From: an uncultured Planctomycetia bacterium
GTDB taxonomy: Bacteria > Planctomycetota > UBA8108 > UBA1146
Assembly (NCBI GenBank): GCA_964605665.1
Contig: CAZSDP010000013.1
Coordinates: forward strand, 49,331-113,330
Length of the DNA stretch: 64,000 nt
Reading direction: 5' to 3'
Every line of letters starts with the position of its first letter. Positions within the stretch are counted from its first letter, which is position 1. The position numbers and the translations under genes were made by a program. Positions 2,270-58,517 of this stretch are shown here, piece by piece. Below the pieces are notes generated by a model. It searched no databases. It had not been told where the DNA came from and worked only from the letters and a program-made list of their open reading frames with translations.

Positions 2270-2275
2270 CAATCG

Positions 2276-11115: not shown

Positions 11116-12166
11116 CCGTGGGGATCTCCTCCACCAAACGACTAATCACATGATCGGATGTCACACCCTCTGCCTCGGCCGCAAAGTTTGTCAGGATCCG
11201 ATGTCGTAGTACCGGATGTGCGACCTTCTTGATGTCGTCATAGGTCACATGGGAACGACCGGCCAGGATGGCGTTGGCTTTGCCACCCAAGACGAGGTAC
11301 TGCCCCGCACGAGGGCCTGCTCCCCAATCGATGTGCTGACGAACATGCTCAGGCGCTTCACCAGTGCTCACTCGCGTCGCTCTCGTCAGGCGCAGTGCGT
11401 ATCGGATCACCTCATCCGCTGCTGGCACACTGCGAACCAACTTCTGTAGATCGAGGATCTCTTCGCGTCCCACGACCGGTTTCACATCGATCGATTCACC
11501 ACCTGTTGTTCGTTGCATGATCGCCAACTCTTCGTCCTGAGTTGGATAGTCAACTCGAACGTTGAACATGAATCGGTCGAGCTGCGCTTCAGGTAGTGGA
11601 TAGGTACCTTCTTGCTCGATGGGGTTTTGTGTCGCGAGCACGAAGAATGGTTGCTCCAGGCGATGGCGGGTTCCACCGACGGTTACCTGCTTTTCCTGCA
11701 TCGCTTCGAGAAGCGCTGCTTGCGTCTTCGGTGGGGTACGGTTGATTTCATCCGCAAGGATCACATTGGCGAAGACCGGGCCGCTGAGAAATCTGAAATT
11801 ACGCTCCCCTGTCTCTGGATCGTCCTGAATCACTTCGGTTCCGGTGATGTCGGAAGGCATCAAGTCGGGAGTAAACTGAATTCGGTTGAAGCTCAGAGAG
11901 AGCGTCTCTGCGAGAGTGCTAATCATCAGGGTCTTCGCAAGTCCCGGAACCCCGACCAATAGGCAGTGTCCTCCTGCGAAGAGCGACAACAAGAGCTGAT
12001 CGATGACGTCGTCTTGACCAACGATCACTCGAGCGAGCTCTGTTCGAACTTCATTCGAAGCAGTTTGGATCCTCTCAAAGCGCGCCTCATCGCCTCCACC
12101 TGCGGGGCTCCCGTCTGCTGGGCTACCTGCATCAGGGGTTGGGTTGAAATCCTCTTCGGCGTGCAT
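11105..12166 (-). CDS. moxR: MoxR family AAA+ ATPase
   Basis: Walker [24 protein letters not shown], Walker [44 protein letters not shown]. Confidence 0.95.
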
Positions 12167-31715: not shown

Positions 31716-33209
31716 TCATTGAAGTCCTTGAACCACCAGTTCGAGAATCCCATCCCCATCGAGATCTGCTGGTAACGCGACGTGGGCTTGGAAAGAAGTC
31801 CCCTTGGGACGCTGGCCTGCCGCTTCGAATCCAAAGTCCTTCAAGCCAGAGTCATTCGTCGCGAGAATTTGAATCAGGTCGATCGCACCATCCCCATCGA
31901 TATCTCGCAGAGGTCGAAGTCCTGGGTCAGCGCCAACGCGCCACCCCTCCGAAGGGACTTCACTTTGATCCCAGGGGAGAAGAGGAAGACCTTCTGGAGA
32001 GAACCGCAAAGGTCTCAATGGTCGCTCTCCCACTCTCTGACCGAGGAGGCCGGGAACCCGAAAACCCTCTGCGTCTTCTTTCCCCGGCAATATCTCTAGG
32101 GGATGCTCGGGAGAAACCAAACCGATAGCAGGCCCCTGCGCTTCCTCGAGCAGTGCCGATTCACCAAAGTGATAGACAGAGAGACCGCTTCCCAAAGGGG
32201 ACACTCTCTCCGGATCGGATGAGGTCGGCCAAACGATGATCTCGTCCCGACCATCGCCATCAACATCGGCGACATCCCAAGCCGTGATTCCCAGCGGAGC
32301 CACCCGACGCAATGCTGGAGCAACCGGATGGGGAACTCCCTGATCGTCGACGGAGCAGATCCAAAGATCGGAGTCTGCTCGCCGTCCACCACCATAAAGG
32401 CTGTGGACTCCTGCGGCATCCGCAGCAGTGAGCTGGGCTAGCTTCGCAGGATGATCTCCACCGGGATAGAGCGCGGACATCACCGACTGAGTCGCTTTAC
32501 CGTGTCCTAGTCCAAGAAGATGTCCCATCTCATGGAGCAACACTGTGCTGAGTTCAACGATTTTAGGTCGCCGAAGCGCAACCCCCTGCGGCGAATGCGA
32601 GCCCTCCTTCGATCCCGCTGAACCTTGAGCAACTGTCCATTCCAAATCCGCATTCAAATGGATGAAGCCGGTCCCTTCCCAGCTGGGGTCGGTCGCATGA
32701 GCGACCCCACCGTCCCAACCGAGAAAGGGAGAGCAATCATCATGTCGACCTCGTCGCCAAGAGATCACGAAGTCCGGTTCGACTCCGTCCTCAGCCTCTC
32801 GAAACTGCACCACTCCGGTTCGTGCCCACTGGGCTCCCATCGCCTCAATCGTCTCGCGCACCTGGCTCTCGGGAAGTTTCTCACCTTCCGGCTCGTAGCT
32901 CCAAGTCAACCGCGATCCACCAGCAGCCCTTCGTCCGCGAACCTCAAAGGGTGGAAACCAAGGTCCGCGATTCGGCCATGAGGAGAGTTCTTGATCGCCA
33001 GGAGACCCGAGCACGAAATCGAGCAGAGCGTCGTGCTCAGGCTCCGCTCCGCTCTGCTCCTTCTTCGAATCGGAATCTGAGCCGGCATTCGGCCCACAGC
33101 CACCACTTAGAACAACGGTGCACAGAAGGAGGAGCACCCAGAACCCGCTCTGCAGGCAGCTGACTCGGTGAGCGGAGTTGTCAGTCAGAATCAAGGCGAA
33201 CCCGTGCAT
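31716..33209 (-). CDS. Matrixin (M10) metalloprotease lipoprotein with FG-GAP-like repeats
   Basis: HEMGHLLGLGH zinc motif, Met-turn SVMSALY, structural Zn H-D-H-H (HDDCSPF..GVAHA..IHLN), DVDGDGRDE/DIDGDGAID/DLDGDGILE repeats, lipobox LSGGC. Start uncertain (33209-33344). Confidence 0.85.
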   Translation of the reverse strand: MHGFALILTDNSAHRVSCLQSGFWVLLLLCTVVLSGGCGPNAGSDSDSKKEQSGAEPEHDALLDFVLGSPGDQELSSWPNRGPWFPPFEVRGRRAAGGSRLTWSYEPEGEKLPESQVRETIEAMGAQWARTGVVQFREAEDGVEPDFVISWRRGRHDDCSPFLGWDGGVAHATDPSWEGTGFIHLNADLEWTVAQGSAGSKEGSHSPQGVALRRPKIVELSTVLLHEMGHLLGLGHGKATQSVMSALYPGGDHPAKLAQLTAADAAGVHSLYGGGRRADSDLWICSVDDQGVPHPVAPALRRVAPLGITAWDVADVDGDGRDEIIVWPTSSDPERVSPLGSGLSVYHFGESALLEEAQGPAIGLVSPEHPLEILPGKEDAEGFRVPGLLGQRVGERPLRPLRFSPEGLPLLPWDQSEVPSEGWRVGADPGLRPLRDIDGDGAIDLIQILATNDSGLKDFGFEAAGQRPKGTSFQAHVALPADLDGDGILELVVQGLQ

Positions 33210-33392
33210 CTCACCCCTGATCTTCAACAGCAGTCTTCTGATGCAGCTTGACCAGGCCCGACGAAAGGACCCCTGATCGAGCGCGAAGGGCACAGAGAAA
33301 CCGATTCTCGAGTCGGGCACAAGATGTGAAAGCGCCCTGACCAACTCACAGCTGGCCAGGGCACGTTGAAATCAATGAGGGATCAGCACGCT

Positions 33393-34541
33393 TTAAAGAT
33401 CTTGGAGGAACATCAGCAATGCTTGTTGATCGGCAGTAAAGAGGGCCTGGTAGGCCATTCTCGAGTTGAGCGCTTCGTCATCGTGGATCAAGATCGCGTC
33501 CTCGAGAGTTGTTGCCCGACCATCGTGAAGATATGGCGCGGTATTTCGGATGCCCCAAAGCGGGGGAGTCCGATACATGCCAGATGGAGCGTCCGGTTCC
33601 TCCATCCCCCGGAATGAATCGGGATAGATGTCGTGAAGAAGCAGATCGGAGTAAAGAGGCACGGGGCCCTGAGATCCGGTGAGGCTTGGAATGTGACACG
33701 TCGCACAGCCGATCGAGTTGAAGAGGGCTTCACCTGTCGCGATCGCTGGGTCAGTACCTCCAACACGTGGCGGATAAGCCAAGTTCTCCAGGTAGAAGGT
33801 CAGGTCTTCGAGATCACCGGCGGAGACTTCTGGATCGAGCACTCCATCGGAATCGGAGAGCAACCCAAAACCTCTGCCGTTGTCGCTGACGGTCAGCCCA
33901 ATCTCCCCGCTGAGAGCATCGTGAGAAAAGTCATCAACTGTCGGAACCTGAGCCTTCCAACCGAACTTTCCAACTTCCATCACCCCCCCGACATTGAGGA
34001 GGCGCGCCACACCGCGAACCCCGTCACCATCGGTATCGAACGGGTCTTCATTCGCGAGGATCGTCGCATCGGAAATCGTCTGGATCAGGCCGATACCCAA
34101 GGCTGACGGAGTCTGCCGCTGCTCAAAAACATCGGCAGTGGGGTCAGCTTCTTCTCGTCGGGGAGAATCCATACGACGGAGCTTACTGGCGACCTGTCCC
34201 CCGGGGAGATTCAGGAATGGCCCATTCCCGTTGTTGTCATTCGCAAAGCGGAAGACGTTCACGTCGAGTCCACCCGCCGCTCCGATGACCGGCTTCTGGT
34301 GACAGCTACGGCAAGAATCCGCGTTCAAGTCGGGTGTACCCAACCCTTGGGAGAGTCGCCAATCTCGATCGAACACCTTACGGCCTCGGATCCATTGGTC
34401 GAGATCCGCCCCAGTCAACGGTACCGGCGGTCCCCCTTCAGTTCCTGCGGGGGGCACTGGTGTCGTATCGTCGATGATCTCGGCATGAAGTGCCGTCACG
34501 ACCAAACTGAGGAACACTAAACTCAGAATCGAATTCTTCAT
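33393..34541 (-). CDS. Di-heme oxidoreductase family protein (DUF1111, bCcP/MauG-like), secreted
   Basis: Two CxxCH motifs (CRSCH, CATCH), GKFGWKA, LYSDLLLHD, YRTPPLWG..PYLHDGRATTLEDAILIH; signal peptide; TAATG coupling to the upstream paralog. Confidence 0.9.
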   Translation of the reverse strand: MKNSILSLVFLSLVVTALHAEIIDDTTPVPPAGTEGGPPVPLTGADLDQWIRGRKVFDRDWRLSQGLGTPDLNADSCRSCHQKPVIGAAGGLDVNVFRFANDNNGNGPFLNLPGGQVASKLRRMDSPRREEADPTADVFEQRQTPSALGIGLIQTISDATILANEDPFDTDGDGVRGVARLLNVGGVMEVGKFGWKAQVPTVDDFSHDALSGEIGLTVSDNGRGFGLLSDSDGVLDPEVSAGDLEDLTFYLENLAYPPRVGGTDPAIATGEALFNSIGCATCHIPSLTGSQGPVPLYSDLLLHDIYPDSFRGMEEPDAPSGMYRTPPLWGIRNTAPYLHDGRATTLEDAILIHDDEALNSRMAYQALFTADQQALLMFLQDL

Positions 34542-36016
34542 TAGAGTGCCTCCAAAAACTGAATAACTAAGTCTTGTTCAGCAGCGCTCAAGTTGGAGTA
34601 GGCATCTCTGATCGCCTGCGCTTCTCCACCATGTAACAGAATCGCTTCGTGCATCGATCCCGCACGTCCGTCGTGCAACCAGGGCCCATGGAATCGCACT
34701 CCCCAAAGGGGTTGAGTGCGAAACTCGCTGGCGGTCGAATCGAGAGGATCGATCGTTGAGAACTGCGGAGCCCCCATCGAGATCCCATCTGCGAGTATCG
34801 GTCCCATATCGTGGAGCAAAAGGTCAGTGTAAGCCTCGAGGTTGCCCACCGCTGAAGGAAGCGTCGGCAAGTGACACGCGACACAATTCAAGCTGTTGAA
34901 GAGTGCTTCACCCTGCTGCTCCTCTGAATTGAACGGCTTGCGAGGCGGCGGAGCGACGAACTTGTTGAAAACGAGGACGTCGGCAAAGTCAGAAGGGCTA
35001 AACTCGGGATCAGGAGTTCCATCATTGTCGAATGTTGCGGCGTCGAATCCCGCTCCTACCTGGAATTTGTAGCTGACGATTCCATCGCTTCCAAAGACCG
35101 GCACCGTCGTGATCCCCATCTGGTTGAACGCTGCGCCGCGGATAAACGCCTCAAGGAAATTCGCCTGCAACTTGTATCCGAAACGACCGAAGTTTCCGAA
35201 GCCGTCGGTATTGTAACGACCGCTGATTCCATCCCCATTCGAGTCATTCGGGTCGGAGTTCCCGATGATCGTCGTATTGCTGACAAACTCGAAGAGTCCA
35301 ACCCCAAAGAATGGTGGAGCATTTCGATGTGCGGGGTAGACCGGTTGTCCGAGTGCTTGAATCGAACCGGAGACCGGGATCGAGGGTCGATTGCCGTCGA
35401 TCTCGCCGTAGCTCGGCATCACCAAGCTCGGGACTCCCGCGACATGGGTTTGATTGGGAGGGTCACCGACCCCAACCAAGAAGAAGTTCCTGTATACGGG
35501 AGCAGAACCACCGATGGTGGGATGACTGTGGCACGCTTCGCAGCTTCCCGCATTGAAGAGAGGTCCCAACCCCTCTTCTGGCGTGAAGACCTTGGCCATC
35601 AACTCGCGGCCGTTCAAGAAGGAGCTGAACTCGTCTGCGTTCAAGCCAGGAATCGCGTCACCCACATTACACGGGGCGTGTGCGTCGCAATCGAGACTGT
35701 CAGAGGTTGGATCGGGCCCACAGACTCCAAAGGGAGCACCGGGAGGTGGCCCTCCAGAAAACAAGAAGCCGAAGAGATAAATGGGGTCCGCAAGGTTGGT
35801 CGTGCCATCGTCATTGGTGTCCATCGCATCCACGCAATAGACGACCTCGCCGAGGAACAAGACCTCAAGAGACGCGACACCATCGGCAATATTGACGATG
35901 TTGTCGGTATTCACGTCTCCGCGAATAAAGTCACGCCCTTCGACAGCTCCCATTCCAAAAATGAGCACTGCGAAAAAACAGACTACCCAGCAACTCATGG
36001 TGGGTCGTAGTTTCAT
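34541..36016 (-). CDS. Dockerin + di-heme oxidoreductase family protein (DUF1111), secreted
   Basis: Signal peptide, dockerin FIRGDVNTDNIVNIAD..CVDAMDTNDDGTTNLAD, CEACH and CVACH, GRFGYK, YTDLLLHD, FRTQPLWG..PWLHDGRA. Start 36016 (the ORF extends to 36076). Confidence 0.88.
   Translation of the reverse strand: MKLRPTMSCWVVCFFAVLIFGMGAVEGRDFIRGDVNTDNIVNIADGVASLEVLFLGEVVYCVDAMDTNDDGTTNLADPIYLFGFLFSGGPPPGAPFGVCGPDPTSDSLDCDAHAPCNVGDAIPGLNADEFSSFLNGRELMAKVFTPEEGLGPLFNAGSCEACHSHPTIGGSAPVYRNFFLVGVGDPPNQTHVAGVPSLVMPSYGEIDGNRPSIPVSGSIQALGQPVYPAHRNAPPFFGVGLFEFVSNTTIIGNSDPNDSNGDGISGRYNTDGFGNFGRFGYKLQANFLEAFIRGAAFNQMGITTVPVFGSDGIVSYKFQVGAGFDAATFDNDGTPDPEFSPSDFADVLVFNKFVAPPPRKPFNSEEQQGEALFNSLNCVACHLPTLPSAVGNLEAYTDLLLHDMGPILADGISMGAPQFSTIDPLDSTASEFRTQPLWGVRFHGPWLHDGRAGSMHEAILLHGGEAQAIRDAYSNLSAAEQDLVIQFLEAL
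35669..35929 (-). repeat. Dockerin-type repeat 1 (4-Cys variant)
   Basis: FIRGDVNTDNIVNIAD..LF..CVDAMDTNDDGTTNLADPI..LFSGGPPP..CGPDP..LDC..C. Confidence 0.8.
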
Positions 36017-36568
36017 TCTAGGCCTTCCGCACGTGTCATCTCTGCTCGATTCGCTTTGCACAAATCGCTGGCTCACCCATCAATGATCACGCGAAATTCG
36101 AGAATTCCTCAACGACTTCTGCGGAAAGTACCGGCGGGATGGCTGAGCAGGTCTTCCCTTCCCAGCCTTTGGACTTTTCCAGAAGGTAAATCCGTCTACG
36201 AACGCTTCGTGCGTTGAGAGAAGCCCGAGCGCAGTCAGAAATCAGAGAACCTAAATCAGAGAATCAAGAAGTCTCTTTCTCTCGCTATCTCAAGCCCCCC
36301 ACCTGTCTAATTTTACCGGAACGAAGGCTCTCCGTGAACCTAACGATCAAAACTCGCCTCTTCATGCCGAGGAGAACGTTCTCAGCGAGTAAAAGTTGCC
36401 GGACTCGATTTCCGAGTCCGACACTCTCTTTCCGAAGACCGCACTCTTTCGGAGAGGTGCAACTCCGGAGAATCCCCCACAAGCCATTACTAACAAAGGA
36501 CTTGTGCGATCAAGAAGACGCCGGCCTCTCCCTTGCCTTATTCACAAGGCGACTGGAAGGAGTCCTCA

Positions 36569-43893: not shown

Positions 43894-44982
43894 TCAAAAA
43901 CAGGTGCTCTGATCACACATCAACAGATCCTCAGGAACTGCTGGCTGCCCATCGAATCCACAATCGGGAAATGGAGCGGGAATCGTCGCGCCTATCGGGG
44001 AGAAGAGCGCGGTAAGAAGCAGAATCGCGTCCCCGATATCAATCACACCATCGTTGTTCGCATCTGAGCTATCCCAACAAGATGCCACCACCGCCGGAAC
44101 TCCGGGCGACGGAAAGAGAAAGCTCAAGATATGGATCGCATCGGCGATGTTCGTTCCCCCATCGACATTGGAATCGCCACGGATGAATCGCCCCTCCGGG
44201 CCATCCCCGAGCCACTGAATGCCGGTCAAGGAGGTCCCTCCCAAAACGTTGGAAAACACCACTTCGCCGGTGGGCCCAATCTCGAAGTATGTTCCGGTGA
44301 CCGCGTCGAGAATCAGGAACGTCTCCGTCAAAACTCGATAATCGAGTGAACAGGGTTCGATCAACGAAGTCTGTACTGAAACATTCGAGATTTCATTTCC
44401 CTGGAGGTCGAGGAGGTGGATCGTATCGTCGTCTCTACCCACTACTGCGATGAAACTATCCTGCGCATCGATTCCCCCAATCTCATAGGGTAAATCGATC
44501 GACTGCGATACAGACCCACTGGCGTCAAAGCGCAGGACTCGACCAGAACGAGTCGCCATCAGCAACTCACCGGAGAGGATCCCAAGGTCTACAGGGCATT
44601 CGAAATTGACAGCATCGCAGATCACGCCTGGGATACTCACGACATCAACAATCATTCGATTGGCTCGATCGAGCCGCCCGAAGTTGGGAGCCACTCCCGT
44701 CGCGTTCGATCCGACGACGTAGATCTCGTCGTCGAGTACGGCCATCCCAGCGACTTGACCGAAATTGGCGGGGGCCGTGAACAACTCGGTCCCGGTCACC
44801 ATTCCATCACCACTATGCTGGCTAATTGCAAAGTCTGCTTGAGGAGACATCGGCGCGGAATCTGCGCTCAGAATCGAATCGGTGTCCAATTGGATCTGCG
44901 CTTCGACCCCCCCCACCACACAAGAGAGGAGAGCAAAACCGACAGTGGCTAAGCCTTTGTTCAAGATTCGAGTCGTCTGCAT
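43894..44982 (-). CDS. Secreted beta-propeller-like protein with C-terminal dockerin
   Basis: Signal peptide ending VEA-Q; repeated short beta blades (GMAVLDDEIYVVG, GGIDAQDSFIAVV, SLDYRV..FLILD); dockerin FIRGDSNVDGGTNIAD..CWDSSDANNDGVIDIGD. Confidence 0.7.
   Translation of the reverse strand: MQTTRILNKGLATVGFALLSCVVGGVEAQIQLDTDSILSADSAPMSPQADFAISQHSGDGMVTGTELFTAPANFGQVAGMAVLDDEIYVVGSNATGVAPNFGRLDRANRMIVDVVSIPGVICDAVNFECPVDLGILSGELLMATRSGRVLRFDASGSVSQSIDLPYEIGGIDAQDSFIAVVGRDDDTIHLLDLQGNEISNVSVQTSLIEPCSLDYRVLTETFLILDAVTGTYFEIGPTGEVVFSNVLGGTSLTGIQWLGDGPEGRFIRGDSNVDGGTNIADAIHILSFLFPSPGVPAVVASCWDSSDANNDGVIDIGDAILLLTALFSPIGATIPAPFPDCGFDGQPAVPEDLLMCDQSTCF
43897..44187 (-). repeat. Dockerin-type repeat 2 (4-Cys variant)
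   Basis: FIRGDSNVDGGTNIAD..LF..CWDSSDANNDGVIDIGDAI..LF..PAP..CG..LMC..C. Confidence 0.8.
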
Positions 44983-45060: not shown

Positions 45061-46434
45061 TCATGCAAAGAGCCCGAGTGGGGTAAATCCAACCGGATCC
45101 ACCGCCGCCGCTTGAGAGTATCCCGGGATGATCTGTTCGATCAGAGCTGGATCATCGCCGAAGTAACTCTGAAAGATCTCACCGAACACAGCTCTGAAGT
45201 CGGTCCGGTGAGCAACGTATCGGGAATTATCAGAGAAGAGGTCCCCTGTTGTCCAGCTAGTTGCATCGCAATTGTAGACCCCCCCCACCACCGATCCTCC
45301 GGTAATCAACATCGTTCCCGCAGAACCGTGATCTGTCCCTCCGCTGCCATTTTCGCGGGATGTTCGGCCAAATTCGCTCATGACCACCACCAGGACGTCC
45401 TCCCACTGATCGGCGAGATCTCGGGAAAGAGCGCGCAGGCCCTCTGCGAGTTGTGCCAAGAGAGTGGGGTGATCCGCGCTTTGGTTAGTATGTGTGTCAA
45501 ATCCCGAATGGTTGAGGCCAAGGATCCGAACTGGAGTCCGTTTGAGGAGCATCGCCGTTTCTGCCAGCCGGTCACCGAGAGTCCCCGTCGGATAAACCGC
45601 ACCATTTGCTGGGACGTAGGCTCCCTGCTGCAGAGCCGCCTGCACGACGTCGATCGACTGTCCAAGCTGCACACCGGTGGCGTGTAGGAGCGATCGATAG
45701 GGCTTGGTGGAATCGTCTTCCGGGCCTCCGTAAAGCCCGTAGAACCCGTCTCCATCCGCGCCCCCAGTCGTCGACGGGAGCATCCCGAGAAAACGATCGA
45801 GCTCCGCTTGGCTTCCAGGAAATGCGTAGTCGGTACTCCTGGGGAATGCAGGGACTGGAATATCACCTTGGTATGCCATCGGTAGACTTGAATCGACCGC
45901 AGCCGCCACCAATGGTGCGTTACCCAGATCAAGATTTGCGGCGAGCTTTCGGTACAACATTCCTTCCCGGAATGCTTCTTCACCTGGCTTGCCTGTTTCC
46001 CAGAACAACTGCCCGCTGAAGTGACTGCGGGTCAAGTTCTGATAGCCAACTCGTTGGATAATCGCGAGCTGCCCCGGCCCCGCAACTCCATTCAAGGAGC
46101 TGTGATTGTAGATCTCCATCAACGGTTCCAGCCCTGGATTGAGCTGAGCGAATCCATTGCCAAGGTCGATGGCAGAGCTCTCTGGAATGAACAAAGACGG
46201 TCGGTTTGCTAGCGAATACTCCGCGTCTCCGCGCGGAATAACAGTGTTCACCGAGTCGTTCCCACCCCGTAAGAAGATCGTCACCATCTTGCGTGTCGGT
46301 GGAATTCCGCCCGCAATCAATCGACGAGTGAGCCATGCCGGTGAAGTCGCTGAAGCTCCCAAGCCGAGTCCGAGACTCGCCCCGAGACTTCGTAACATAA
46401 ATTTTCGTCTATCCATCATCGGTCGTTCCTTCAT
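45061..46434 (-). CDS. DUF1501 domain protein, Tat-exported
   Basis: Twin-arginine DRRKFM signal, IFLRGGNDSVNTVIP, GFDTHTNQ, SEFGRT..ENGSGGTDHG, DFRAVF; ATGA-coupled to DUF1800. Confidence 0.9.
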   Translation of the reverse strand: MKERPMMDRRKFMLRSLGASLGLGLGASATSPAWLTRRLIAGGIPPTRKMVTIFLRGGNDSVNTVIPRGDAEYSLANRPSLFIPESSAIDLGNGFAQLNPGLEPLMEIYNHSSLNGVAGPGQLAIIQRVGYQNLTRSHFSGQLFWETGKPGEEAFREGMLYRKLAANLDLGNAPLVAAAVDSSLPMAYQGDIPVPAFPRSTDYAFPGSQAELDRFLGMLPSTTGGADGDGFYGLYGGPEDDSTKPYRSLLHATGVQLGQSIDVVQAALQQGAYVPANGAVYPTGTLGDRLAETAMLLKRTPVRILGLNHSGFDTHTNQSADHPTLLAQLAEGLRALSRDLADQWEDVLVVVMSEFGRTSRENGSGGTDHGSAGTMLITGGSVVGGVYNCDATSWTTGDLFSDNSRYVAHRTDFRAVFGEIFQSYFGDDPALIEQIIPGYSQAAAVDPVGFTPLGLFA

Positions 46435-49400
46435 TGGAAACTCCAGCGAGGCATACTCAACATCAGCCCAACCAGTTTCTGCACTCGATCCTGATAGTCT
46501 GGAGCCGTCGGATCGAAGGGGCCCATCGTCCCATCCGGTAAAGTCTGGGCGAACCGTTGCAACAAGAGGCGCTCTGTAGCATTCATTGTCCCCTGGTAGA
46601 GAAGATCGTCGAAGAGATCGATGATCTCAAATTCAGACTGAGCATTTGCAGCATTGAGGATCTGTATCGGATCCCAGCTGAATCGGGCACTGACATTGTC
46701 CGCCACCGTTCGAACGAAGTTGACTCGCTCGAGCAAGGAAGTGGTTCCGATCCAGCGATCTCCACGTTCTGGCCAGCCATCGGGATCATCCCGATCAAAG
46801 AGGCTCATGCCCATACTTTGAAGAGTGTCGGTCAAACTACGCCCATCGAAATCTGCGTCGAGTGCACGCATTGTCGAAACCATGTGCTCAAAAGGTGTTT
46901 TAACTTTCGCTCGGCGAGACAATTCACTGCGGAAGACACTACCGACATCATCCACAGCCAAAATTGTACGAACGACGGTTTCTATGTTGCCGGGTGGGCT
47001 CGTCGAATACCACGCAGCGATCGCATCTGCGAGAAGAGCCCGCAATGGAAGTGGCGCGGAGAGATCATGCGCACTCGCTAGATCGATTTCGTCGGAGATG
47101 AGAAGCCCAATCAACTTGACGCTGATGAACTCGGCCGCAGAGGGGTGCTGAACAATCTGATTGATCACATCGAGGCCATCTTGGACGCCGTCGGCGCCGA
47201 GGCGCCCAGCTGGAATCGTCAGCTGATGGGGTGTCCCCGCGAAGATGATTTTCTCCGTCGTGTCATGCTGTGCCGGGTCAAACCGGAAAATCCAATGCCC
47301 TTGTCGGTCATCCACATCGAGATATCCAGGGCCGGGGGACCAGCGATAAAGACGCGGCAAACACGAGAGATCACCATTCGTGAGGTTCACATTGTGAACC
47401 TGAATTGCCAGAACATTTGTCCCAACCAACAGCTCTTCACGAAACCGATCGAGTGAAACAATGAGGGGATCTCTTGTCACTTCGTGCCCAGAGCTGAACT
47501 CGTTGAAGGCGGGAGGTGTTCCCGTTGCGCTCATCGAGCCCGACCGCGCAACTTCACGGCCATTGAGGTAAACCACCACACCGTCATCGTAGGCGACATG
47601 GAGTTCGAGAACTTCTGGAAAGTGAATGTCGCTGAGAGTGAAGGACCTGCGAAGGTAGACGCTACCGTAATTCCCTTGCATGTCGGTGAGCACGGTCGCG
47701 TCGTCCCCATCCCCAAAGCCGATACCGGTTGGTCCCTGTAACCAGGCGGAATCATCGAATCCGATCTCAGCCCATGCGGTGGTCGGTTCTCCACTCAATC
47801 CAGGGGAAGGCTCGGCAGTTCCCTTCCAGTAATTCCAAACATCACCGATCTCGATGATGGGGGTTTCTAAGATCACATTCGGCTCGTCAATCTGGGGATT
47901 GATCGCGTTGGCAGGGAATGGTTGAAGTGACTCGAAGGGAACCTTACTGACTGTCCACCCAGTAAAGCAGCGAGACACTTCTTCGACATCTGCCTGGGTA
48001 TATCCATTGTCTACGCCGAGTCCGAAGAGCTCCAAAATCTCCCGGGCATAGTTCTCATTCGGCTGTGCCGCCAAATTCAAAACCGAATCGAGATAGATGA
48101 GCATCGATGGGCTCGTTGCAGAGTAAAGCAGCAGATCTCCAAAATTCCCGAATGCATTGTCGGTGAAGAACTGGAATTCCTCTCGCTCGATCTCCGCGGC
48201 TTCACGCCGAGCCTGTCGAGATTCAATGACGCGCTCGTCATATCGATCTCTCGACCTCTGGAGAACGTCCTGAACTTTGTCGAGATCTGTTGTGAAGTGG
48301 TTATCCCAGAACATCGCGAGAACATTTCGCAGCTGATTCTCTGAGTAACGCGATCGGGCAAATGCAAAGCGCTGCAAACTCTCTTTATCGCGCATCATCG
48401 AGCGAGAAGGAAATGTCGTGGGTTCTTGTACAACCACTCGTGGATCGAGAAAGAAGTCCCCTTGAGTCAAATTTCGATTGTGCCCCTGTATCGCGAGGAT
48501 GTTCTCTCCCGGCACCAACAGCGAACTCGGAATCACGAAGTACTCCGGAATACCTGGTCCATGCTGGGATGTGGTTCCCTCATCGTGTGCCGGAAAAGTG
48601 GCCGTCAGATTAGAACGACCGACTTCAGTCCCATTCACCCAGGCCACAAACCCGTCATCGTAGTCGCAGTAGAGCGCCACAGCCGGAAGTGAAGCGGGAT
48701 CTGGAACAAAGAATGAGGCCCGGCATGCAATCGAGGTGTAGTTCCCCTGCATGTCGAGAAGTAACGTACCGCCACGACCAAAAGAGAGCCGAAATGGGGC
48801 CGGCGCTATCTCCCAGGTCGAATCATCAAAAGCGGGCAACTGCCAATCGAGTGGGAATGGTGAGGTCCCCTTCTGATACCGAAAGAATGACTCCTTCACC
48901 AAAATCTCACGGTCTCTCGTGCGTTCAAATGTGGTCAAGGATGCTGCTTCACGTGTGAGCAAATCAGCATTCAAACTCTCGTCGATCCCCAGAATCTGCT
49001 GATCGATCCAAGGTCCAAATCCGGTGGCGATCAGCTGATCAGTGTCGCCCGGCCTGGCACCGAAGGTGGCCCTCGCCAATAGATGGCCTGCCTGCAACCG
49101 CTCAGGGTCCGGTCCGCCACATGGAGGGAAATTACACTCCAGTGGATCGAGACTTGGATCAGGACCGCAGTCGATCGGACCGGGAGGAGGAGGAGGGGCG
49201 CCACCGGAAAAGATGTAGGCGAGAACATTGATCGGGTCTGAAATCGTCAGCGACCCAGAGTCATCCACGTCTGCCGCATCTCGGCAATCGACATGCCAGC
49301 CGAGGAACAAGTGACCGAGAACCACGACGGCGTCGCTGACATCGACGGCGCCATCATTGGAGGCATCACCTCGACGAAACTCGGGTTCAACCGCACCCGC

Positions 49401-49460
49401 ACTCGACAAGGAACCGAGAAGGGCAAAGAAGAGCACCCAAACACAAAATCGACACTTCAT
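46431..49460 (-). CDS. DUF1800 family protein with N-terminal dockerin and two inserted galactose-binding-like modules
   Basis: HLLARATFG, LRNVLAMFWDNHF, MLIYLD, PNENYAREILELFGLG, FDPAQHD, KVKTPFE, DPDGW. Dockerin FRRGDASNDGAVDVSD. Two FDDSxW..DMQGNY..YDDG..NG.EV modules. Confidence 0.88.
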   Translation of the reverse strand: MKCRFCVWVLFFALLGSLSSAGAVEPEFRRGDASNDGAVDVSDAVVVLGHLFLGWHVDCRDAADVDDSGSLTISDPINVLAYIFSGGAPPPPPGPIDCGPDPSLDPLECNFPPCGGPDPERLQAGHLLARATFGARPGDTDQLIATGFGPWIDQQILGIDESLNADLLTREAASLTTFERTRDREILVKESFFRYQKGTSPFPLDWQLPAFDDSTWEIAPAPFRLSFGRGGTLLLDMQGNYTSIACRASFFVPDPASLPAVALYCDYDDGFVAWVNGTEVGRSNLTATFPAHDEGTTSQHGPGIPEYFVIPSSLLVPGENILAIQGHNRNLTQGDFFLDPRVVVQEPTTFPSRSMMRDKESLQRFAFARSRYSENQLRNVLAMFWDNHFTTDLDKVQDVLQRSRDRYDERVIESRQARREAAEIEREEFQFFTDNAFGNFGDLLLYSATSPSMLIYLDSVLNLAAQPNENYAREILELFGLGVDNGYTQADVEEVSRCFTGWTVSKVPFESLQPFPANAINPQIDEPNVILETPIIEIGDVWNYWKGTAEPSPGLSGEPTTAWAEIGFDDSAWLQGPTGIGFGDGDDATVLTDMQGNYGSVYLRRSFTLSDIHFPEVLELHVAYDDGVVVYLNGREVARSGSMSATGTPPAFNEFSSGHEVTRDPLIVSLDRFREELLVGTNVLAIQVHNVNLTNGDLSCLPRLYRWSPGPGYLDVDDRQGHWIFRFDPAQHDTTEKIIFAGTPHQLTIPAGRLGADGVQDGLDVINQIVQHPSAAEFISVKLIGLLISDEIDLASAHDLSAPLPLRALLADAIAAWYSTSPPGNIETVVRTILAVDDVGSVFRSELSRRAKVKTPFEHMVSTMRALDADFDGRSLTDTLQSMGMSLFDRDDPDGWPERGDRWIGTTSLLERVNFVRTVADNVSARFSWDPIQILNAANAQSEFEIIDLFDDLLYQGTMNATERLLLQRFAQTLPDGTMGPFDPTAPDYQDRVQKLVGLMLSMPRWSFQ
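49119..49379 (-). repeat. Dockerin-type repeat 3 (4-Cys variant)
   Basis: FRRGDASNDGAVDVSD..LF..CRDAADVDDSGSLTISDPI..IFSGGAPPPPP..CGPDP..LEC..C. Confidence 0.8.
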
Positions 49461-49501
49461 GACCAAACCTGCCCAATTCAGGACTCTGATGATCTCGCCG
49501 G

Positions 49502-56048: not shown

Positions 56049-57092
56049 GTGGAATCTCGAAATGCTCTCCACGCCCTGGACGGCGGAAGCCGAGCTCGGC
56101 AACGAGCGCGATTCATGCGCGCTCTGCTGGCAATTCTCTCGGTCATTCTCTTCGGAACATTCGGTCTCTGCGCCATCGAAGGATGGAGTGGATGGCAGTC
56201 TCTCTACTTCACCTTGATCACCATCACGACTGTTGGCTACGGCGACATGGGATTGTCGGAGGTGGGCCAGAAATTCACGACCATCATTTTGGTGCTCGGA
56301 ATTGCCACCACCACCTACGCCTTCGGACAATTGGTACAGGCGGCCATCGCCTACCAGCTCGATTGGAGATTTCGCATGCAAAAGCGAATCGACAAGTTAT
56401 CTGACCACTCCATCGTTTGTGGAGCGGGGAGATGCGGCCGCGCCGCCTGTGAAAAGCTGAGACAGGAAGGGCGCCAGCTCGTCTTGATCGACCTCGACGC
56501 TGCGCACTTGGACTGGTGTCGTGAATTGGAAATCCCATTCATTCGCGGGTGCGCCACAGAGGATGAGACGCTGCGTAGTGCGGGAATCGAACGCGCCCAT
56601 GGCATTATCTGCGCGACCGATTCCGACGCAGAGAACATCATGATTTGCCTCACCTCTCGCGAGCTGAATCGAAATGTTGTCGTGGTGAGTCGTGCAAACC
56701 AGCGAGAGTCGATCGGAAAATTGGAACGGGCTGGGGCATCGCACGTCATCGCTCCCGCGGTGGACAGCGGAAGGGAACTTGCGAGTACTCTCGTCCGTCC
56801 CCATGTCAGTCGATTCCTCAGAGAGTCTTACGCCGCCGAGAGCCGCTTTAGAATGACGGCAGTCCCCATCGAGGAGAACTCCGCTGCGATCGGTATCACA
56901 ACGCGAAAATTGGGAGACGAGGAACCGAACGTCGTCTTCGTCGCGATCCAGAAACCGGGTCGAGAGATGGAGATTCGTCCGATGGCTGACGATCCTCTCG
57001 ATGCCGGAGATCTTCTGATCGTCCTCGGAGACCCCGAAGCGGTTACTCGACTTGCTGAATGGACCTCTCACCCAAATACAATCGAGGCTTGA
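56049..57092 (+). CDS. Potassium channel protein (2TM pore + RCK/TrkA_N + TrkA_C)
   Basis: Selectivity filter TTVGYGD, Rossmann VCGAGRCG, DAENIMI, KLERAGASHV, DLLIVLG. Confidence 0.93.
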   Translation: MESRNALHALDGGSRARQRARFMRALLAILSVILFGTFGLCAIEGWSGWQSLYFTLITITTVGYGDMGLSEVGQKFTTIILVLGIATTTYAFGQLVQAAIAYQLDWRFRMQKRIDKLSDHSIVCGAGRCGRAACEKLRQEGRQLVLIDLDAAHLDWCRELEIPFIRGCATEDETLRSAGIERAHGIICATDSDAENIMICLTSRELNRNVVVVSRANQRESIGKLERAGASHVIAPAVDSGRELASTLVRPHVSRFLRESYAAESRFRMTAVPIEENSAAIGITTRKLGDEEPNVVFVAIQKPGREMEIRPMADDPLDAGDLLIVLGDPEAVTRLAEWTSHPNTIEA

Positions 57093-57149
57093 TCGCCGAA
57101 ACGACCAAGCCTCGATAGTGAGTCAGTTCAGTTATTGCAGTCCGAGCTC

Positions 57150-58517
57150 TCAGGGACAGGCGCTCGTATCGTTGCAATCTAGGGGATCGGTATCAGAAGG
57201 GTCGACTCCACAAGAGAGTCCCGGCGCTGGAGGAGGCGCCCCCCCGACGAAGAGATAAGTAAACACGTAGATCGCGTCGGCGAGATCGAGAGCTCCCGAA
57301 TCATTGGAGTCTGCGGCATCTATGCATCCCAAGGCTCCCATCAGGAACAAGAAGTTCAAGATCGTCACCCCATCTGCAACATTGACCATGGCGTCGACGT
57401 TCGCGTCACCACGAATGAACTGCTCCAAGGGAATGCATTCGACGGTCTCGCAAATGAGGGTGGAATCGACGCCACACGAGCCCGCAACGGAGACGCAAAC
57501 ATCGTGTGGGCCATCGCTGGGAAGAGTGACCAAGGCACTGTTTCCCGCCACTCCCGATTGAACAACCGACCCGTCGACCGTGATCGTTGCGGTGTACGGG
57601 GGAAGCGGCCCGGTGAATCCAGACCAACTCAGACTGACTTCACAACCGGTCGGACCTTGAGCAGGCTCAGCGGTCAGAATCCCACCCGAAGGTGCTGGAT
57701 CGACCGTGCAATCAGCATCGCAACAAGTGGAAACCGAAGGCTGACCACCGATGATTGGGGTCAGGCAAACTTGACGACTTCCGCTTTGACCGGGAAGCAC
57801 CGTTCCATCGTCGGGCAGGCTATAAGTGGTGGCGGTTCCGGAGAGGGTCGTCGCCAATACACCGTCGATGCGCACTTCGATAGCGTCGTAGACGAAAGCA
57901 TTGGTCCAGGAGAGCTCGAAGTTACAAGCACACGGGCTTCCAGCTGCCACGCAGTTCAATCCGGTGATCGAGGGATCGAGAATGGTGATTTCCCCCGAAA
58001 GTTGATCGGGAATCACTTGGGCGCTAGACGGTTCAACGACAATTACCTCGACCGGTGGAACTCCGATCGTTGCACAAAAGTTGACGGTGCTAACCGAGCC
58101 GATGCCGCCCAGTGGTGAGTATGTCGCTCGTGCAAGCTCATAGTCCGCCCCGGGAAGTAGAGGGGAACAGAGCATAAAGCAAATGATCACCCCTTGGGTG
58201 AAACCGCCACTCTCCATGTCGAGAGACTCGAATTCCGGTGCACCCCCCCCATTACTTGTCTGGGTAGTGTCTCCGCTGGTGATCGCCTGCAAGGTCAGCT
58301 CTGCACTACTGTGACAAACTCCGTATGACCAACCGCTCAAGTTGATGCCACTGGAGCTGTCGAGAATTACGCCCACTTCCGCTTCGATACCTGGTGGCGT
58401 CATCGCACTCTCGAGCTGTATTTGATATGCATTCTGTTTTGCATCACTCACACTACAAAAAGCCAAGAGTGAAATGAGTCCGATGGCCACTTTGGTGTAT
58501 CGCGGTTTCCCGTGCAT
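57150..58517 (-). CDS. Secreted cohesin-like + two Cys-rich Ig/FN3-like + dockerin protein
   Basis: GGAGGAG RBS before ATG 58517, signal peptide. Beta-sandwich VGVILDSS..LSGWSYGVCH..GFTQGVII..YELARATY..VNFC resembles a cohesin. Two LSW-containing modules. Dockerin FIRGDANVDAMVNVAD..CIDAADSNDSGALDLAD. Confidence 0.7.
   Translation of the reverse strand: MHGKPRYTKVAIGLISLLAFCSVSDAKQNAYQIQLESAMTPPGIEAEVGVILDSSSGINLSGWSYGVCHSSAELTLQAITSGDTTQTSNGGGAPEFESLDMESGGFTQGVIICFMLCSPLLPGADYELARATYSPLGGIGSVSTVNFCATIGVPPVEVIVVEPSSAQVIPDQLSGEITILDPSITGLNCVAAGSPCACNFELSWTNAFVYDAIEVRIDGVLATTLSGTATTYSLPDDGTVLPGQSGSRQVCLTPIIGGQPSVSTCCDADCTVDPAPSGGILTAEPAQGPTGCEVSLSWSGFTGPLPPYTATITVDGSVVQSGVAGNSALVTLPSDGPHDVCVSVAGSCGVDSTLICETVECIPLEQFIRGDANVDAMVNVADGVTILNFLFLMGALGCIDAADSNDSGALDLADAIYVFTYLFVGGAPPPAPGLSCGVDPSDTDPLDCNDTSACP
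57153..57419 (-). repeat. Dockerin-type repeat 4 (4-Cys variant)
   Basis: FIRGDANVDAMVNVAD..LF..CIDAADSNDSGALDLADAI..LFVGGAPPPAP..CGVDP..LDC..C. Confidence 0.8.

What the first reader, a model, noticed from the sequence alone, without database searches (positions are those of the whole stretch)
57150..58517. Single protein with cohesin-like N-terminus and dockerin C-terminus: adaptor scaffoldin or self-polymerising filament
Seen: signal peptide, a ~150-aa beta-sandwich (GWSYGVCH..GFTQGVII..YELARATY..VNFC), two Cys-rich LSW-containing Ig/FN3-like modules, then a dockerin. There is no catalytic domain. Inference: a cohesin and dockerin at opposite ends could chain head-to-tail into fibres or a lattice, or bridge cargo to an anchoring scaffoldin as adaptor scaffoldins do in cellulosomes. 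The many paired Cys would rigidify the rod.
Basis: partly seen in the sequence, partly recalled or inferred. Interest (0 to 1): 0.65.

Follow-up and report, generated by a model that had tools for sequence, protein, structure and literature searches.

The report
Planctomycete cohesin–dockerin adaptor protein
This gene encodes a secreted, non-enzymatic protein with a cohesin socket at one end and a dockerin plug at the other, one member of a large uncharacterised family in marine Planctomycetota that probably links other plug-tagged proteins into extracellular complexes unrelated to cellulose breakdown.

Summary
Window 57150-58517 (- strand) encodes a 455-aa protein made of five parts: signal peptide (1-26), cohesin-fold domain (29-181), two homologous Cys-rich FN3-like modules (184-271, 280-361), and a two-EF-hand dockerin (366-424) with a conserved Cys tail (425-455). 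No catalytic domain was found.

The target itself matches no Pfam model. Membership rests on three things:
- A pLDDT 89.6 model whose N-domain superposes on type I cohesins (TM 0.78-0.82).
- Family profiles that hit cohesin and dockerin PDB chains (7e-5, 7e-6).
- Relatives that pass the Pfam cut-offs for both Cohesin and Dockerin_1.

The family is large. A representative search gave 234 clusters at E<=1e-30. It is multi-copy in at least 33 MAGs, nearly all labelled Planctomycetota, with architectures C-C-D, C-D and C-m-m-D. Almost every cohesin protein ends in this dockerin.

The window holds one cohesin and four dockerins. The other three tag a di-haem oxidoreductase, a DUF1800 protein and an unknown protein. 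There is no cellulolytic context.

The best reading is a ScaC-like adaptor in a non-cellulosomal "planctosome"-type network. Binding partners, and the choice between adaptor and self-polymer, remain untested. I class it as a new member of a known but experimentally uncharacterised kind.

The parts
57150..58517 (-). Whole gene: 455-aa secreted cohesin - 2x FN3-like - dockerin protein (stop codon 57150-57152)
   Evidence: ORF list. The exact product is on record in NCBI, JGI, ENA and Logan assemblies. AF2 model with a 29-sequence alignment has mean pLDDT 89.6.
58440..58517 (-). Signal peptide, residues 1-26 (basic n-region KPRYTK, hydrophobic core VAIGLISLLAFCSV, SDA|KQ cleavage site)
   Evidence: Read directly from the sequence. 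Predicted helix 8-25 with lower pLDDT. No dedicated signal-peptide predictor was available.
57975..58433 (-). Cohesin-fold domain, residues 29-181, 'GWSxGxC' subtype with 4 Cys
   Evidence: Family N-domain HMM hit at residues 29-181, E 4.5e-54. Foldseek TM 0.78-0.82 to cohesins 5nrk_A, 2vn5_A, 1g1k_A and 3ul4_A. Profile versus PDB gives 5lxv_A ScaC cohesin at 7.4e-5. Of 29 homologues, 12 hit Pfam Cohesin.
57705..57968 (-). Cys-rich FN3-like module m1, residues 184-271 (7 Cys; C.C.....WTN...YD.I....DG)
   Evidence: Module HMM hits. Beta strands 185-271 in the model. Foldseek and profile hits to FN3 arrays. No Pfam family.
57435..57680 (-). Cys-rich FN3-like module m2, residues 280-361 (5 Cys), homologous to m1
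   Evidence: The same module HMM hits both copies. Beta strands 280-361 in the model.
57246..57422 (-). Dockerin: two EF-hand-like Ca2+ loops plus helices, residues 366-424 (loop 1 D371-D382, loop 2 D403-D414, invariant C398 between them)
   Evidence: Target alone versus PDB dockerins gives E 0.033; the family profile gives 7.3e-6. Of 29 homologues, 15 hit Pfam Dockerin_1. Helices 380-392 and 412-424 in the model. D371, D382 and D414 are invariant; N373, D403 and G408 are >=90% conserved.
57153..57245 (-). Conserved Pro/Cys tail of the dockerin, residues 425-455 (GGAPPPAPGLSCGVDPSDTDPLDCNDTSACP; C436, C448, C454)
   Evidence: The Cys residues are conserved in 28-29 of 29 homologues. The same tail follows all four dockerins of the window.
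57081..57116 (-). Terminator-like hairpin (16-bp stem) 34 nt downstream of the stop, overlapping the end of the convergent K+ channel gene
   Evidence: Consensus scan. The number of such sites in the region is not above chance, so this is weak evidence.
35669..35935 (-). Candidate partner: N-terminal dockerin plus tail of a di-haem oxidoreductase (DHOR) protein (ORF 34541-36076)
   Evidence: Family dockerin HMM E 7.4e-34. Pfam DHOR 1.9e-35. 51% identical to the target's dockerin.
43900..44193 (-). Candidate partner: C-terminal dockerin plus tail of a 362-aa protein with no Pfam family (ORF 43894-44982)
   Evidence: Family dockerin HMM E 6.3e-24. No Pfam hit.
49119..49385 (-). Candidate partner: N-terminal dockerin plus tail of a 1011-aa DUF1800 protein (ORF 46431-49466), next to its DUF1501 neighbour (45061-46434)
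   Evidence: Family dockerin HMM E 8.5e-28. Pfam DUF1800 2.9e-85 and DUF1501 8.9e-31.

Best explanation
The gene encodes a secreted, non-catalytic adaptor scaffoldin of a non-cellulosomal cohesin-dockerin system in a marine Planctomycetota bacterium. After Sec export, the N-terminal cohesin acts as a socket for the Ca2+-dependent dockerin of another secreted protein. Candidates in the same 64 kb are a dockerin-tagged di-haem oxidoreductase, a DUF1800 protein and an unknown 362-aa protein. The two disulfide-rich FN3-like modules act as a stiff spacer. The C-terminal dockerin, probably clasped by disulfides through its Cys tail, plugs into a cohesin on another family member. Because nearly every cohesin protein of the family also carries a dockerin, the expected product is a chained or branched extracellular assembly that carries diverse cargo, not a classical one-scaffold cellulosome. 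Shown here: the domain architecture, the folds, family membership by homology, the distribution of the family, and the absence of a cellulolytic context. Inferred: export, Ca2+ binding, disulfides, every cohesin-dockerin pairing, and the adaptor role.
For: Architecture SP-Coh-m-m-Doc with a high-confidence model (pLDDT 89.6). Cohesin fold: TM 0.78-0.82 to type I cohesins, with the GH84C cohesin-FN3 construct as top hit. Profile hits to cohesins (best is the ScaC adaptor cohesin 5lxv_A, 7.4e-5) and to dockerins (7.3e-6). Relatives pass the Pfam cut-offs for Cohesin (P0039, 37.6 bits) and Dockerin_1 (P0016 148.8 bits; L087 49.3 bits), and the Pfam-cohesin stretch of P0039 coincides with the family N-domain HMM hit. 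EF-loop ligand positions are conserved. The window has one cohesin and four dockerins of the same type. Cohesin and this dockerin are tightly coupled: cohesin ORFs lacking a dockerin were almost all cut by block edges. Dockerin cargo is diverse and non-cellulolytic: DHOR, DUF1800, FG-GAP propellers, purple acid phosphatase and HYR arrays. Published precedents exist: the planctosome adaptor (PMC6461901) and dockerin plus multi-cohesin proteins in ANME archaea (PMC9012536).
Against: The target matches neither Pfam Cohesin nor Dockerin_1, even at E<=1, so both modules are divergent. No cohesin-dockerin binding was tested or modelled. No anchoring protein (cohesin plus a membrane or cell-wall anchor) was seen in the window. 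No transcript evidence was found. The gene is not clustered with the other dockerin genes or with any secretion or assembly genes. Paralogous cohesins and dockerins within one MAG are both strongly diverged (median 36% and 44% identity), so partners cannot be guessed from proximity.
Confidence: 0.55

Rival explanations
1. Self-polymerising unit. The protein's cohesin recognises its own dockerin, so monomers chain head-to-tail into Ca2+-dependent fibres. With C-C-D paralogues these would become branched lattices that form an extracellular matrix or coat. This can coexist with the adaptor role.
For: Cohesin and dockerin sit at opposite ends of a rod-like spacer. Almost all cohesin proteins of the family carry one dockerin, and C-C-D, D-C-D and poly-D architectures are common, which suits network formation. 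The R. bromii Amy4 cohesin binds its own dockerin, and the authors of that paper note further such pairs in other microbial systems (PMC4611034).
Against: In the canonical adaptor scaffoldins, as I recall from the cellulosome literature (not checked here), cohesin and dockerin specificities differ, which prevents self-aggregation. There is no modelling or binding evidence here. Paralogous dockerins and cohesins are diverse, which fits a specificity code better than a single homotypic pair.
Confidence: 0.2
2. Dockerin-tagged binding subunit. The cohesin-fold domain has lost or never had dockerin binding and instead recognises a substrate or surface ligand such as a glycan, peptide or mineral. 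The protein would then be cargo, displayed through its dockerin, rather than a scaffold.
For: The target fails the Pfam Cohesin model. The N-domain diversifies strongly among paralogues (median 36% identity), as variable ligand binders do. In the planctosome model the cohesin/dockerin-containing protein is assigned substrate binding, through its hyaline repeat domain (PMC6461901). If every cohesin protein also has a dockerin, something else must serve as the root anchor.
Against: The single-domain structural matches among the 50 listed Foldseek hits are all cohesins, and none of the 50 is described as a CBM or lectin. Profile matches are cohesin-specific. The strict co-occurrence of this domain with this dockerin type is most simply explained by a functional pairing.
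Confidence: 0.18
3. The dockerin-like module is not a cohesin ligand in this lineage. It would be a general Ca2+-stabilised surface-retention or sorting tag that binds a non-cohesin receptor such as a cell-envelope component. The cohesin-like domain would then be functionally unrelated to it.
For: The module occurs after the signal peptide or at the C-terminus of very different proteins. Dockerins outnumber cohesins 4:1 in the window. No anchor with a cohesin was found.
Against: A surplus of dockerins over cohesins is normal in cellulosomal genomes (from my own knowledge, not checked here). The module is homologous to characterised cohesin-binding dockerins. Cohesin domains are expanded in the same genomes.
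Confidence: 0.07

Closest known systems
Ruminococcus flavefaciens ScaC adaptor scaffoldin (cohesin structure 5lxv_A)
   Same: Both are small, secreted and non-catalytic, with a cohesin at the N-terminus and a dockerin at the C-terminus. The ScaC cohesin is the best PDB sequence match of the family's N-domain profile (7.4e-5) and a Foldseek hit (TM 0.65).
   Different: ScaC belongs to a Gram-positive cellulosome with GH cargo and a sortase-anchored root (from my own knowledge). Here the host lineage is Planctomycetota and the cargo candidates are redox or unknown proteins. Two Cys-rich FN3-like spacers are inserted and the dockerin carries a Cys tail. Sequence identity is low and the Pfam models are not matched.
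'Planctosome' adaptor proposed for freshwater Planctomycetes (Nemodlikiaceae; Andrei et al. 2019, PMC6461901)
   Same: Same phylum. Both are non-cellulolytic cohesin/dockerin proteins with a signal peptide and a beta-sandwich repeat spacer, proposed to bridge dockerin-tagged enzymes.
   Different: The published adaptor is SP-dockerin-HYR-cohesin (order reversed, HYR spacer) with peptidase cargo and an LTD-anchored partner. Here the order is cohesin-m-m-dockerin, the spacer has no HYR match, and no peptidase cargo or LTD anchor was seen in the window. The planctosome itself is a hypothesis; the five other papers that use the word did not look from their titles like experimental follow-ups, and I did not read them.
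Ruminococcus bromii Amy4 (amylosome)
   Same: One protein carries both a cohesin and a dockerin in a non-cellulosomal setting.
   Different: Amy4 carries a GH13 catalytic module and is a Firmicute protein. The target has no catalytic domain.
Clostridium perfringens GH84C cohesin-FN3 construct (2w1n)
   Same: This is the best Foldseek match (E 9.7e-11). It is a non-cellulosomal cohesin directly followed by an FN3 module, the same local arrangement as residues 29-271.
   Different: It is part of a large glycoside hydrolase. Sequence identity is 11%, and the low whole-query TM reflects different inter-domain geometry.
Dockerin plus multi-cohesin proteins of ANME archaea, and Archaeoglobus fulgidus cohesin/dockerin proteins
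   Same: These are non-cellulosomal proteins that combine one dockerin with one to five cohesins, with non-glycosidase dockerin cargo (PMC9012536). They parallel the C-D, C-C-D and C-C-C-D relatives found here.
   Different: They are archaeal, have different partner sets (ABC-transporter binding proteins, S-layer proteins) and lack the Cys-rich m module and the Cys tail.

Membership tests
Cohesin (Pfam PF00963) | About 140-150-aa nine-stranded beta jelly-roll fold of cohesins | tested here: met
   AF2 model domain 32-179. Foldseek to 5nrk_A TM 0.82 and rmsd 2.8 A; 2vn5_A 0.82; 1g1k_A 0.81; 3ul4_A 0.78.
Cohesin (Pfam PF00963) | Sequence match to the curated family model at its gathering score | tested here: not met
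   The target has no Pfam hit even at E<=1. Met only by relatives: 12 of 29 homologues hit Cohesin (best 3e-6), and P0039 scores 37.6 bits against a cut-off of 24.1, on the stretch matched by the family N-domain HMM.
Cohesin (Pfam PF00963) | Profile-level sequence homology to experimentally characterised cohesins | tested here: met
   The N-domain profile (52 sequences) against PDB gives 11 cohesins among 14 hits, best 5lxv_A at 7.4e-5 and 4uyp_A at 1.8e-3. The aligned stretch covers only the first ~55 residues.
Cohesin (Pfam PF00963) | Ca2+-dependent, high-affinity binding of a dockerin | not testable with these tools
Dockerin type I (Pfam PF00404) | Two tandem ~22-residue segments, each an EF-hand-like Ca2+ loop followed by a helix | tested here: met
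   Loops D371-A-N-V-D-A-M-V-N-V-A-D382 and D403-S-N-D-S-G-A-L-D-L-A-D414. Helices 380-392 and 412-424. Loop positions 1, 3 and 12 are invariant or >=90% conserved.
Dockerin type I (Pfam PF00404) | Sequence match to the curated family model at its gathering score | tested here: not met
   The target has no Pfam hit and gives only E 0.033 to the PDB dockerin 2y3n_B. Relatives meet it: 15 of 29 homologues hit Dockerin_1, with P0016 at 148.8 bits, P0039 at 40.8 and L087 at 49.3 against a cut-off of 22.9. The family profile versus PDB dockerins gives 7.3e-6.
Adaptor scaffoldin (ScaC / ScaB type) | Secreted non-catalytic protein with at least one cohesin plus one dockerin | tested here: met
Adaptor scaffoldin (ScaC / ScaB type) | Cohesin and dockerin of the same protein have different specificities, bridging cargo to an anchoring scaffoldin | not testable with these tools
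   This needs binding assays or complex modelling.
Adaptor scaffoldin (ScaC / ScaB type) | An anchoring scaffoldin (cohesin plus a cell-surface anchor) in the same genome | tested here: inconclusive
   None in the 64-kb window, where the only cohesin is the target's. The rest of the genome was not available. In related MAG blocks one 945-aa Big_2/Big_7 protein ends in a cohesin without a dockerin (L052).
Cellulosome component | Association with plant-cell-wall glycoside hydrolases or CBMs | tested here: not met
   No GH or CBM family was found in the 39 window proteins scanned. The dockerin cargo is DHOR, DUF1800 and an unknown protein. Cargo in relatives is FG-GAP, phosphatase, HYR and a galactose-binding-like domain (GBD_T9SS_assoc).
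'Planctosome' adaptor (PMC6461901) | SP - dockerin - HYR repeat - cohesin in a Planctomycetes genome, with peptidase cargo | tested here: not met
   The domain order is reversed. There is no HYR match in the target or in 29 homologues. No dockerin-tagged peptidase is in the window: the M10 matrixin at 31716-33344 has no dockerin. The phylum is consistent: the blocks with family domains come from 33 MAGs, nearly all labelled Planctomycetota.
Fibronectin type III-like module | Seven-stranded beta-sandwich of ~90 aa similar to FN3 | tested here: inconclusive
   Foldseek aligns the query to FN3 arrays (8peq_B 2.2e-9, 6xay_B 1.9e-8), but as multi-domain alignments with high rmsd. Profile hits to FN3 chains are weak, E 0.02-0.4. 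Pfam fn3 is matched in only 1 of 29 homologues, at 0.056.

The most novel reading that the evidence does not exclude
Marine Planctomycetota build a self-assembling, branched extracellular protein network from dozens of paralogous cohesin-dockerin proteins per genome (C-D, C-C-D, C-m-m-D, D-C-D, poly-D and m-array giants). In this network every scaffold unit is also a plug, two position-specific cohesin subtypes set the wiring, and disulfide-clasped dockerins attach redox enzymes, phosphatases and propeller proteins. That would be a general-purpose 'planctosome' matrix rather than a degradative cellulosome. The target would be one spacer-bearing link in it.
Probability: 0.3. Interest if true: 0.75.

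Novelty: new member of a known kind. Interest (0 to 1): 0.45.

Why it matters
Cohesin-dockerin pairing is a well-studied protein assembly system, but it has been characterised almost only in cellulolytic Firmicutes. This gene is a clean, well-modelled example of the same plug-and-socket logic in marine Planctomycetota. There the modules are so divergent that standard Pfam annotation misses them in the target.

The family behind the gene has several unusual properties:
- It is large and combinatorial.
- It couples cohesin and dockerin in nearly every protein.
- It tags non-glycosidase cargo, including a di-haem oxidoreductase.

If the pairings are real, they would explain how these bacteria organise their extracellular enzymes. 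They would also supply new orthogonal, disulfide-stabilised cohesin-dockerin pairs for protein engineering. The published 'planctosome' hypothesis would become directly testable with a small, expressible protein set: one cohesin and four dockerins from a single 64-kb region.

Tried and rejected
- **Homology search tool.** I used the representative search instead.
- **Single-sequence structure prediction.** It gave an unusable model (pLDDT 38), which I discarded in favour of the alignment-based model.
- **Locus searches in genome contigs.** The search for related loci found nothing with the single protein. I replaced it with a hand-made degenerate DNA pattern for the cohesin motif. Four of the 115 matching blocks carried no family domain at my HMM thresholds and are probably chance matches, including the only 'Hellea' block.
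- **Exact-product look-up.** The look-up given with the stop codon included failed. It worked through a cluster member.
- **Other libraries and RNA.** NCBIfam gave only a sub-threshold CelK dockerin match. The RNA-run search returned nothing.
- **CBM or generic Ig reading of the N-domain.** Rejected, because the single-domain structural hits are all cohesins and none of the 50 listed hits is described as a CBM or lectin.
- **Lipoprotein reading.** Rejected, because LAFC is a poor lipobox with Phe at position -1.
- **The + strand ORF 57504-58118 inside the gene.** I treated it as a shadow ORF of a GC-rich gene and did not scan it.
- **Cellulosome reading.** Rejected for lack of any GH or CBM in the proteins scanned.
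- **One shared dockerin address tag.** I tested whether paralogues share a single conserved dockerin. They do not: median identity within a MAG is 44% for dockerins and 36% for cohesins.
Full report
**The observation**

Window 57150-58517 on the - strand is one ORF of 455 aa starting at an ATG. A TTG 15 nt upstream would add five residues. Exactly this 455-aa product is on record in public assemblies. Variants at least 90% identical lie in the same gene neighbourhood on contigs from NCBI (GCA_035092285.1), JGI, ENA and Logan assemblies. Sequencing runs that hold the DNA are labelled as marine, hydrothermal-vent, subsurface and microbial-mat metagenomes. No RNA run was found.

The N-terminus, MHGKPRYTKVAIGLISLLAFCSVSDA|KQ, reads as a Sec signal peptide. 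This is my reading of the sequence, supported by a helix at residues 8-25 in the model. The gene stands alone. It is convergent with a TrkA-type K+ channel gene and divergent from a DUF7133 / cytochrome c / 3-keto-disaccharide-hydrolase gene. A 16-bp-stem hairpin follows the stop codon.

**What the standard libraries say**

The target matches no Pfam family, even at E<=1. NCBIfam gives only a sub-threshold match to the dockerin end of CelK. Against PDB sequences the target alone reaches type I dockerins only marginally (2y3n_B, E 0.033, residues 368-422). On its own sequence, then, neither 'cohesin' nor 'dockerin' would be called.

**Family evidence**

- It returned 23,841 clusters at E<=1e-3, 9,632 at E<=1e-10 and 234 at E<=1e-30.
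- These include about twenty full-length homologues of roughly 440 aa, the closest 47% identical.
- An alignment of 29 full-length proteins (A1) shows the conserved architecture.
- Scanned individually, 15 of the 29 hit Pfam Dockerin_1 (best 2.7e-6) and 12 hit Pfam Cohesin (best 3e-6).
- A profile of A1 hits PDB dockerins (7.3e-6) with its C-terminal part and PDB cohesins (5lxv_A, 1.5e-4) with its N-terminal part.
- A 52-sequence profile of the N-domain alone returns 14 PDB hits, 11 of them cohesins. The best is the R. flavefaciens ScaC cohesin at 7.4e-5.
- More distant relatives pass the curated Pfam cut-offs for both modules. P0039 scores 37.6 bits for Cohesin and 40.8 for Dockerin_1. P0016, with seven dockerins by my HMM, scores 148.8 bits for Dockerin_1.
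- The Pfam-cohesin stretch of P0039 coincides with a hit of my family N-domain HMM.

**Structure**

Single-sequence prediction failed (pLDDT 38). With A1 as the alignment, the model has mean pLDDT 89.6. It contains:
- a beta domain at residues 32-179;
- two beta modules at 185-271 and 280-361;
- helices at 380-392, 399-402 and 412-424.

The Foldseek search against the PDB gave these results:
- The top hit is the cohesin-FN3 double module of C. perfringens GH84C (2w1n, E 9.7e-11).
- Isolated type I cohesins match with target-normalised TM 0.78-0.82 and rmsd 2.7-3.1 A over about 153 columns (5nrk_A, 2vn5_A, 1g1k_A, 3ul4_A, 6kgc_A).
- The middle of the protein aligns with FN3 arrays.
- None of the 50 listed hits is described as a CBM or lectin.

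**Anatomy**

- *Cohesin, residues 29-181.* It has 4 Cys and belongs to the 'GWSxGxC' subtype.
- *Modules m1 (184-271, 7 Cys) and m2 (280-361, 5 Cys).* They are homologous to each other; one module HMM hits both, at 1e-13 and 6e-18. The conserved signature is C.C.....W[TS]N...YD.I....DG. No Pfam family covers them.
- *Dockerin, residues 366-424.* It has two EF-hand-like loops, D371..D382 and D403..D414. Positions 1, 3 and 12 of the loops are invariant or at least 90% conserved. The two repeats resemble each other: (V/L)-A at loop positions 10-11, then a hydrophobic helix ending in LF. Such symmetry is the hallmark of dual-binding-mode dockerins. That reading is an inference only.
- *Tail, residues 425-455.* A Pro-rich stretch is followed by C436, C448 and C454. 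Together with C398, which lies between the two EF hands, these Cys are present in 28-29 of 29 homologues. I infer a disulfide 'clasp'. No coordinates were available to check this.

**Context in the window**

HMMs built from A1 and run on the six-frame translation of the window gave a clear count. They find one cohesin, the target's, and four dockerin-plus-tail modules at E 7e-36 to 6e-24. The other three dockerins are:
- N-terminal on a di-haem oxidoreductase (DHOR, ORF 34541-36076);
- C-terminal on a 362-aa protein with no Pfam family (ORF 43894-44982);
- N-terminal on a 1011-aa DUF1800 protein (ORF 46431-49466), which sits beside its DUF1501 neighbour.

The four dockerins are 40-51% identical to one another. 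The rest of the window is ordinary chromosome. It includes IMPDH, GMP synthase, FtsY, a MoxR/DUF58/BatA/VWA operon, sugar-metabolism genes and TldD/PmbA genes, and none of the 39 proteins scanned matched a glycoside hydrolase or CBM family. From my own knowledge, the DUF1501/DUF1800 and DUF7133 proteins are typical of Planctomycetota.

**Distribution and architectures**

A degenerate DNA pattern for the cohesin motif was scanned across the species-representative genomes.
- Of these, 111 carry genuine family domains.
- The blocks with family domains come from 33 MAGs. Most are labelled Planctomycetota, Planctomycetia or Planctomycetes bacterium. A few are labelled only 'bacterium', and two carry the labels Bacillota and Proteobacteria.
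- Several blocks, and 1 to 11 complete cohesin...dockerin proteins, were recovered per MAG. These are lower bounds.

In those blocks the architectures are C-C-D (123), C-D (53), C-C-C-D (12) and C-m-m-D (1). Among the top 150 representatives they are C-C-D (36), C-m-m-D (20), C-D (14) and D-C-D (10). The representatives also include poly-dockerin proteins and giants with up to 23 m modules ending in a dockerin.

Cohesin ORFs without a dockerin were almost all cut by a block edge. In this family, therefore, a cohesin nearly always comes with one dockerin.

Dockerin-only proteins in the same blocks and among the representatives carry FG-GAP propellers, a purple-acid-phosphatase-type metallophosphatase, galactose-binding-like domains and a 13-HYR array.

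Within a MAG, paralogous cohesins are 36% identical at the median and paralogous dockerins 44%. Both modules have diversified, so there is no single shared address tag.

In C-C-D proteins the first cohesin is nearly always the Cys-bearing 'GWSxGxC' subtype and the second usually is not. This points to two cohesin subtypes with fixed positions.

**Mechanism**

I commit to the adaptor reading at about 0.55.
1. The protein is exported.
2. Its cohesin takes the dockerin of another secreted protein.
3. Its FN3-like modules act as a disulfide-stiffened spacer.
4. Its own dockerin plugs into a cohesin of another family member.

Because scaffold units are themselves plugs, the expected product is a chained or branched assembly carrying non-glycosidase cargo. 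Only the architecture, the folds, the homology, the distribution and the lack of a cellulolytic context are shown. Export, Ca2+ binding, disulfides and every pairing are inferred.

The self-polymer idea (about 0.2) is compatible with the adaptor reading and has an experimental precedent. The R. bromii Amy4 cohesin binds its own dockerin as well as those of other amylases (PMC4611034).

A third reading (about 0.18) makes the cohesin fold a diversified ligand binder and the protein a piece of dockerin-tagged cargo. A fourth (about 0.07) treats the dockerin as a non-cohesin surface tag.

That is the obvious decisive computation.

**Comparison with what is known**

- *ScaC of R. flavefaciens.* It works like this small cohesin-dockerin adaptor. 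ScaC's cohesin is also the best sequence match of the family profile.
- *The 'planctosome' adaptor.* The target resembles the adaptor proposed from genomes of freshwater Planctomycetes, SP-dockerin-HYR-cohesin with peptidase cargo (PMC6461901). It differs in domain order, spacer type and cargo. The five other papers that use the word did not look from their titles like experimental follow-ups, and I did not read them.
- *ANME archaea.* Proteins with one dockerin and several cohesins are also described there (PMC9012536).
- *Cellulosomes.* The target is not a cellulosome component, because the defining association with plant-cell-wall enzymes is absent.
- *Pfam membership.* Membership in Pfam Cohesin and Dockerin_1 fails at the level of the target's own score. 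It is supported by fold, by profile homology and by relatives that do pass.

**Verdict**

The domain interpretation is supported, and the functional alternatives remain open. This is a new, divergent member of a known kind: a non-cellulosomal cohesin-dockerin adaptor. The more interesting result is the family around it, which is large, combinatorial, mostly invisible to Pfam in the target's branch, and confined largely to uncultured marine Planctomycetota. Interest 0.45.

Noticed in passing
window 57435-57968 (-); relatives P0011, P0018 and others: The Cys-rich FN3-like 'm' module (C.C.....W[TS]N...YD.I....DG) has no Pfam family. It occurs in arrays of up to 23 copies in 1,300-2,600-aa proteins that end in the same dockerin.
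   Followed up: partly
loci L006-L120 and representatives P0011-P0160: In C-C-D relatives the first cohesin is almost always the Cys-bearing 'GWSxGxC' subtype and the second a different subtype. This suggests two position-specific cohesin specificities. The DNA pattern used to fetch the loci required the first subtype somewhere in the block, but it did not fix its position.
   Followed up: partly
window 57153-57422 (-), 35669-35935 (-), 43900-44193 (-), 49119-49385 (-): All four dockerins carry a conserved Pro-rich, Cys-containing tail (CG.DP..D.L.C....C). They also share an invariant Cys between the EF hands, a probable disulfide clasp. An 'RGD' immediately precedes the first Ca2+ loop in all four, and the Arg is at least 90% conserved across the 29-sequence alignment.
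   Followed up: partly
window 31716-36076 (-): The dockerin-tagged di-haem oxidoreductase (34541-36076) is immediately followed by an untagged DHOR paralogue (33393-34541) and then by an M10 matrixin plus FG-GAP protein (31716-33344). This looks like a secreted redox/protease gene set.
   Followed up: no
window 45061-49466 (-): The DUF1800 protein is about twice the usual length (1011 aa; its DUF1800 match is split into 3 stretches). It carries an N-terminal dockerin and two internal repeats of a ~100-aa segment ('FDDS.W...DMQGNY....R.F...YDDG.V..NG.EV.RS'). Its DUF1501 partner lies downstream.
   Followed up: no
window 57081-57116 (-): A hairpin with a 16-bp stem (8 GC pairs) starts 34 nt after the target's stop codon and overlaps the 3' end of the convergent K+ channel gene. 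It may be a bidirectional terminator, but the count of such sites in the region is not above chance.
   Followed up: no
window 104-12166 (-): A long operon of the type MoxR AAA+ / DUF58 / BatA-VWA / VWA / PQQ-propeller / prenyltransferase-like / DUF4175. I did not see any link to the finding.
   Followed up: no
locus L052 2195-5029 (-): A 945-aa protein with Big_2, Big_7 and CarboxypepD_reg domains ends in a family cohesin without a dockerin. It is the only complete ORF seen with a full-length cohesin domain and no dockerin, and so a candidate root or anchor type.
   Followed up: partly
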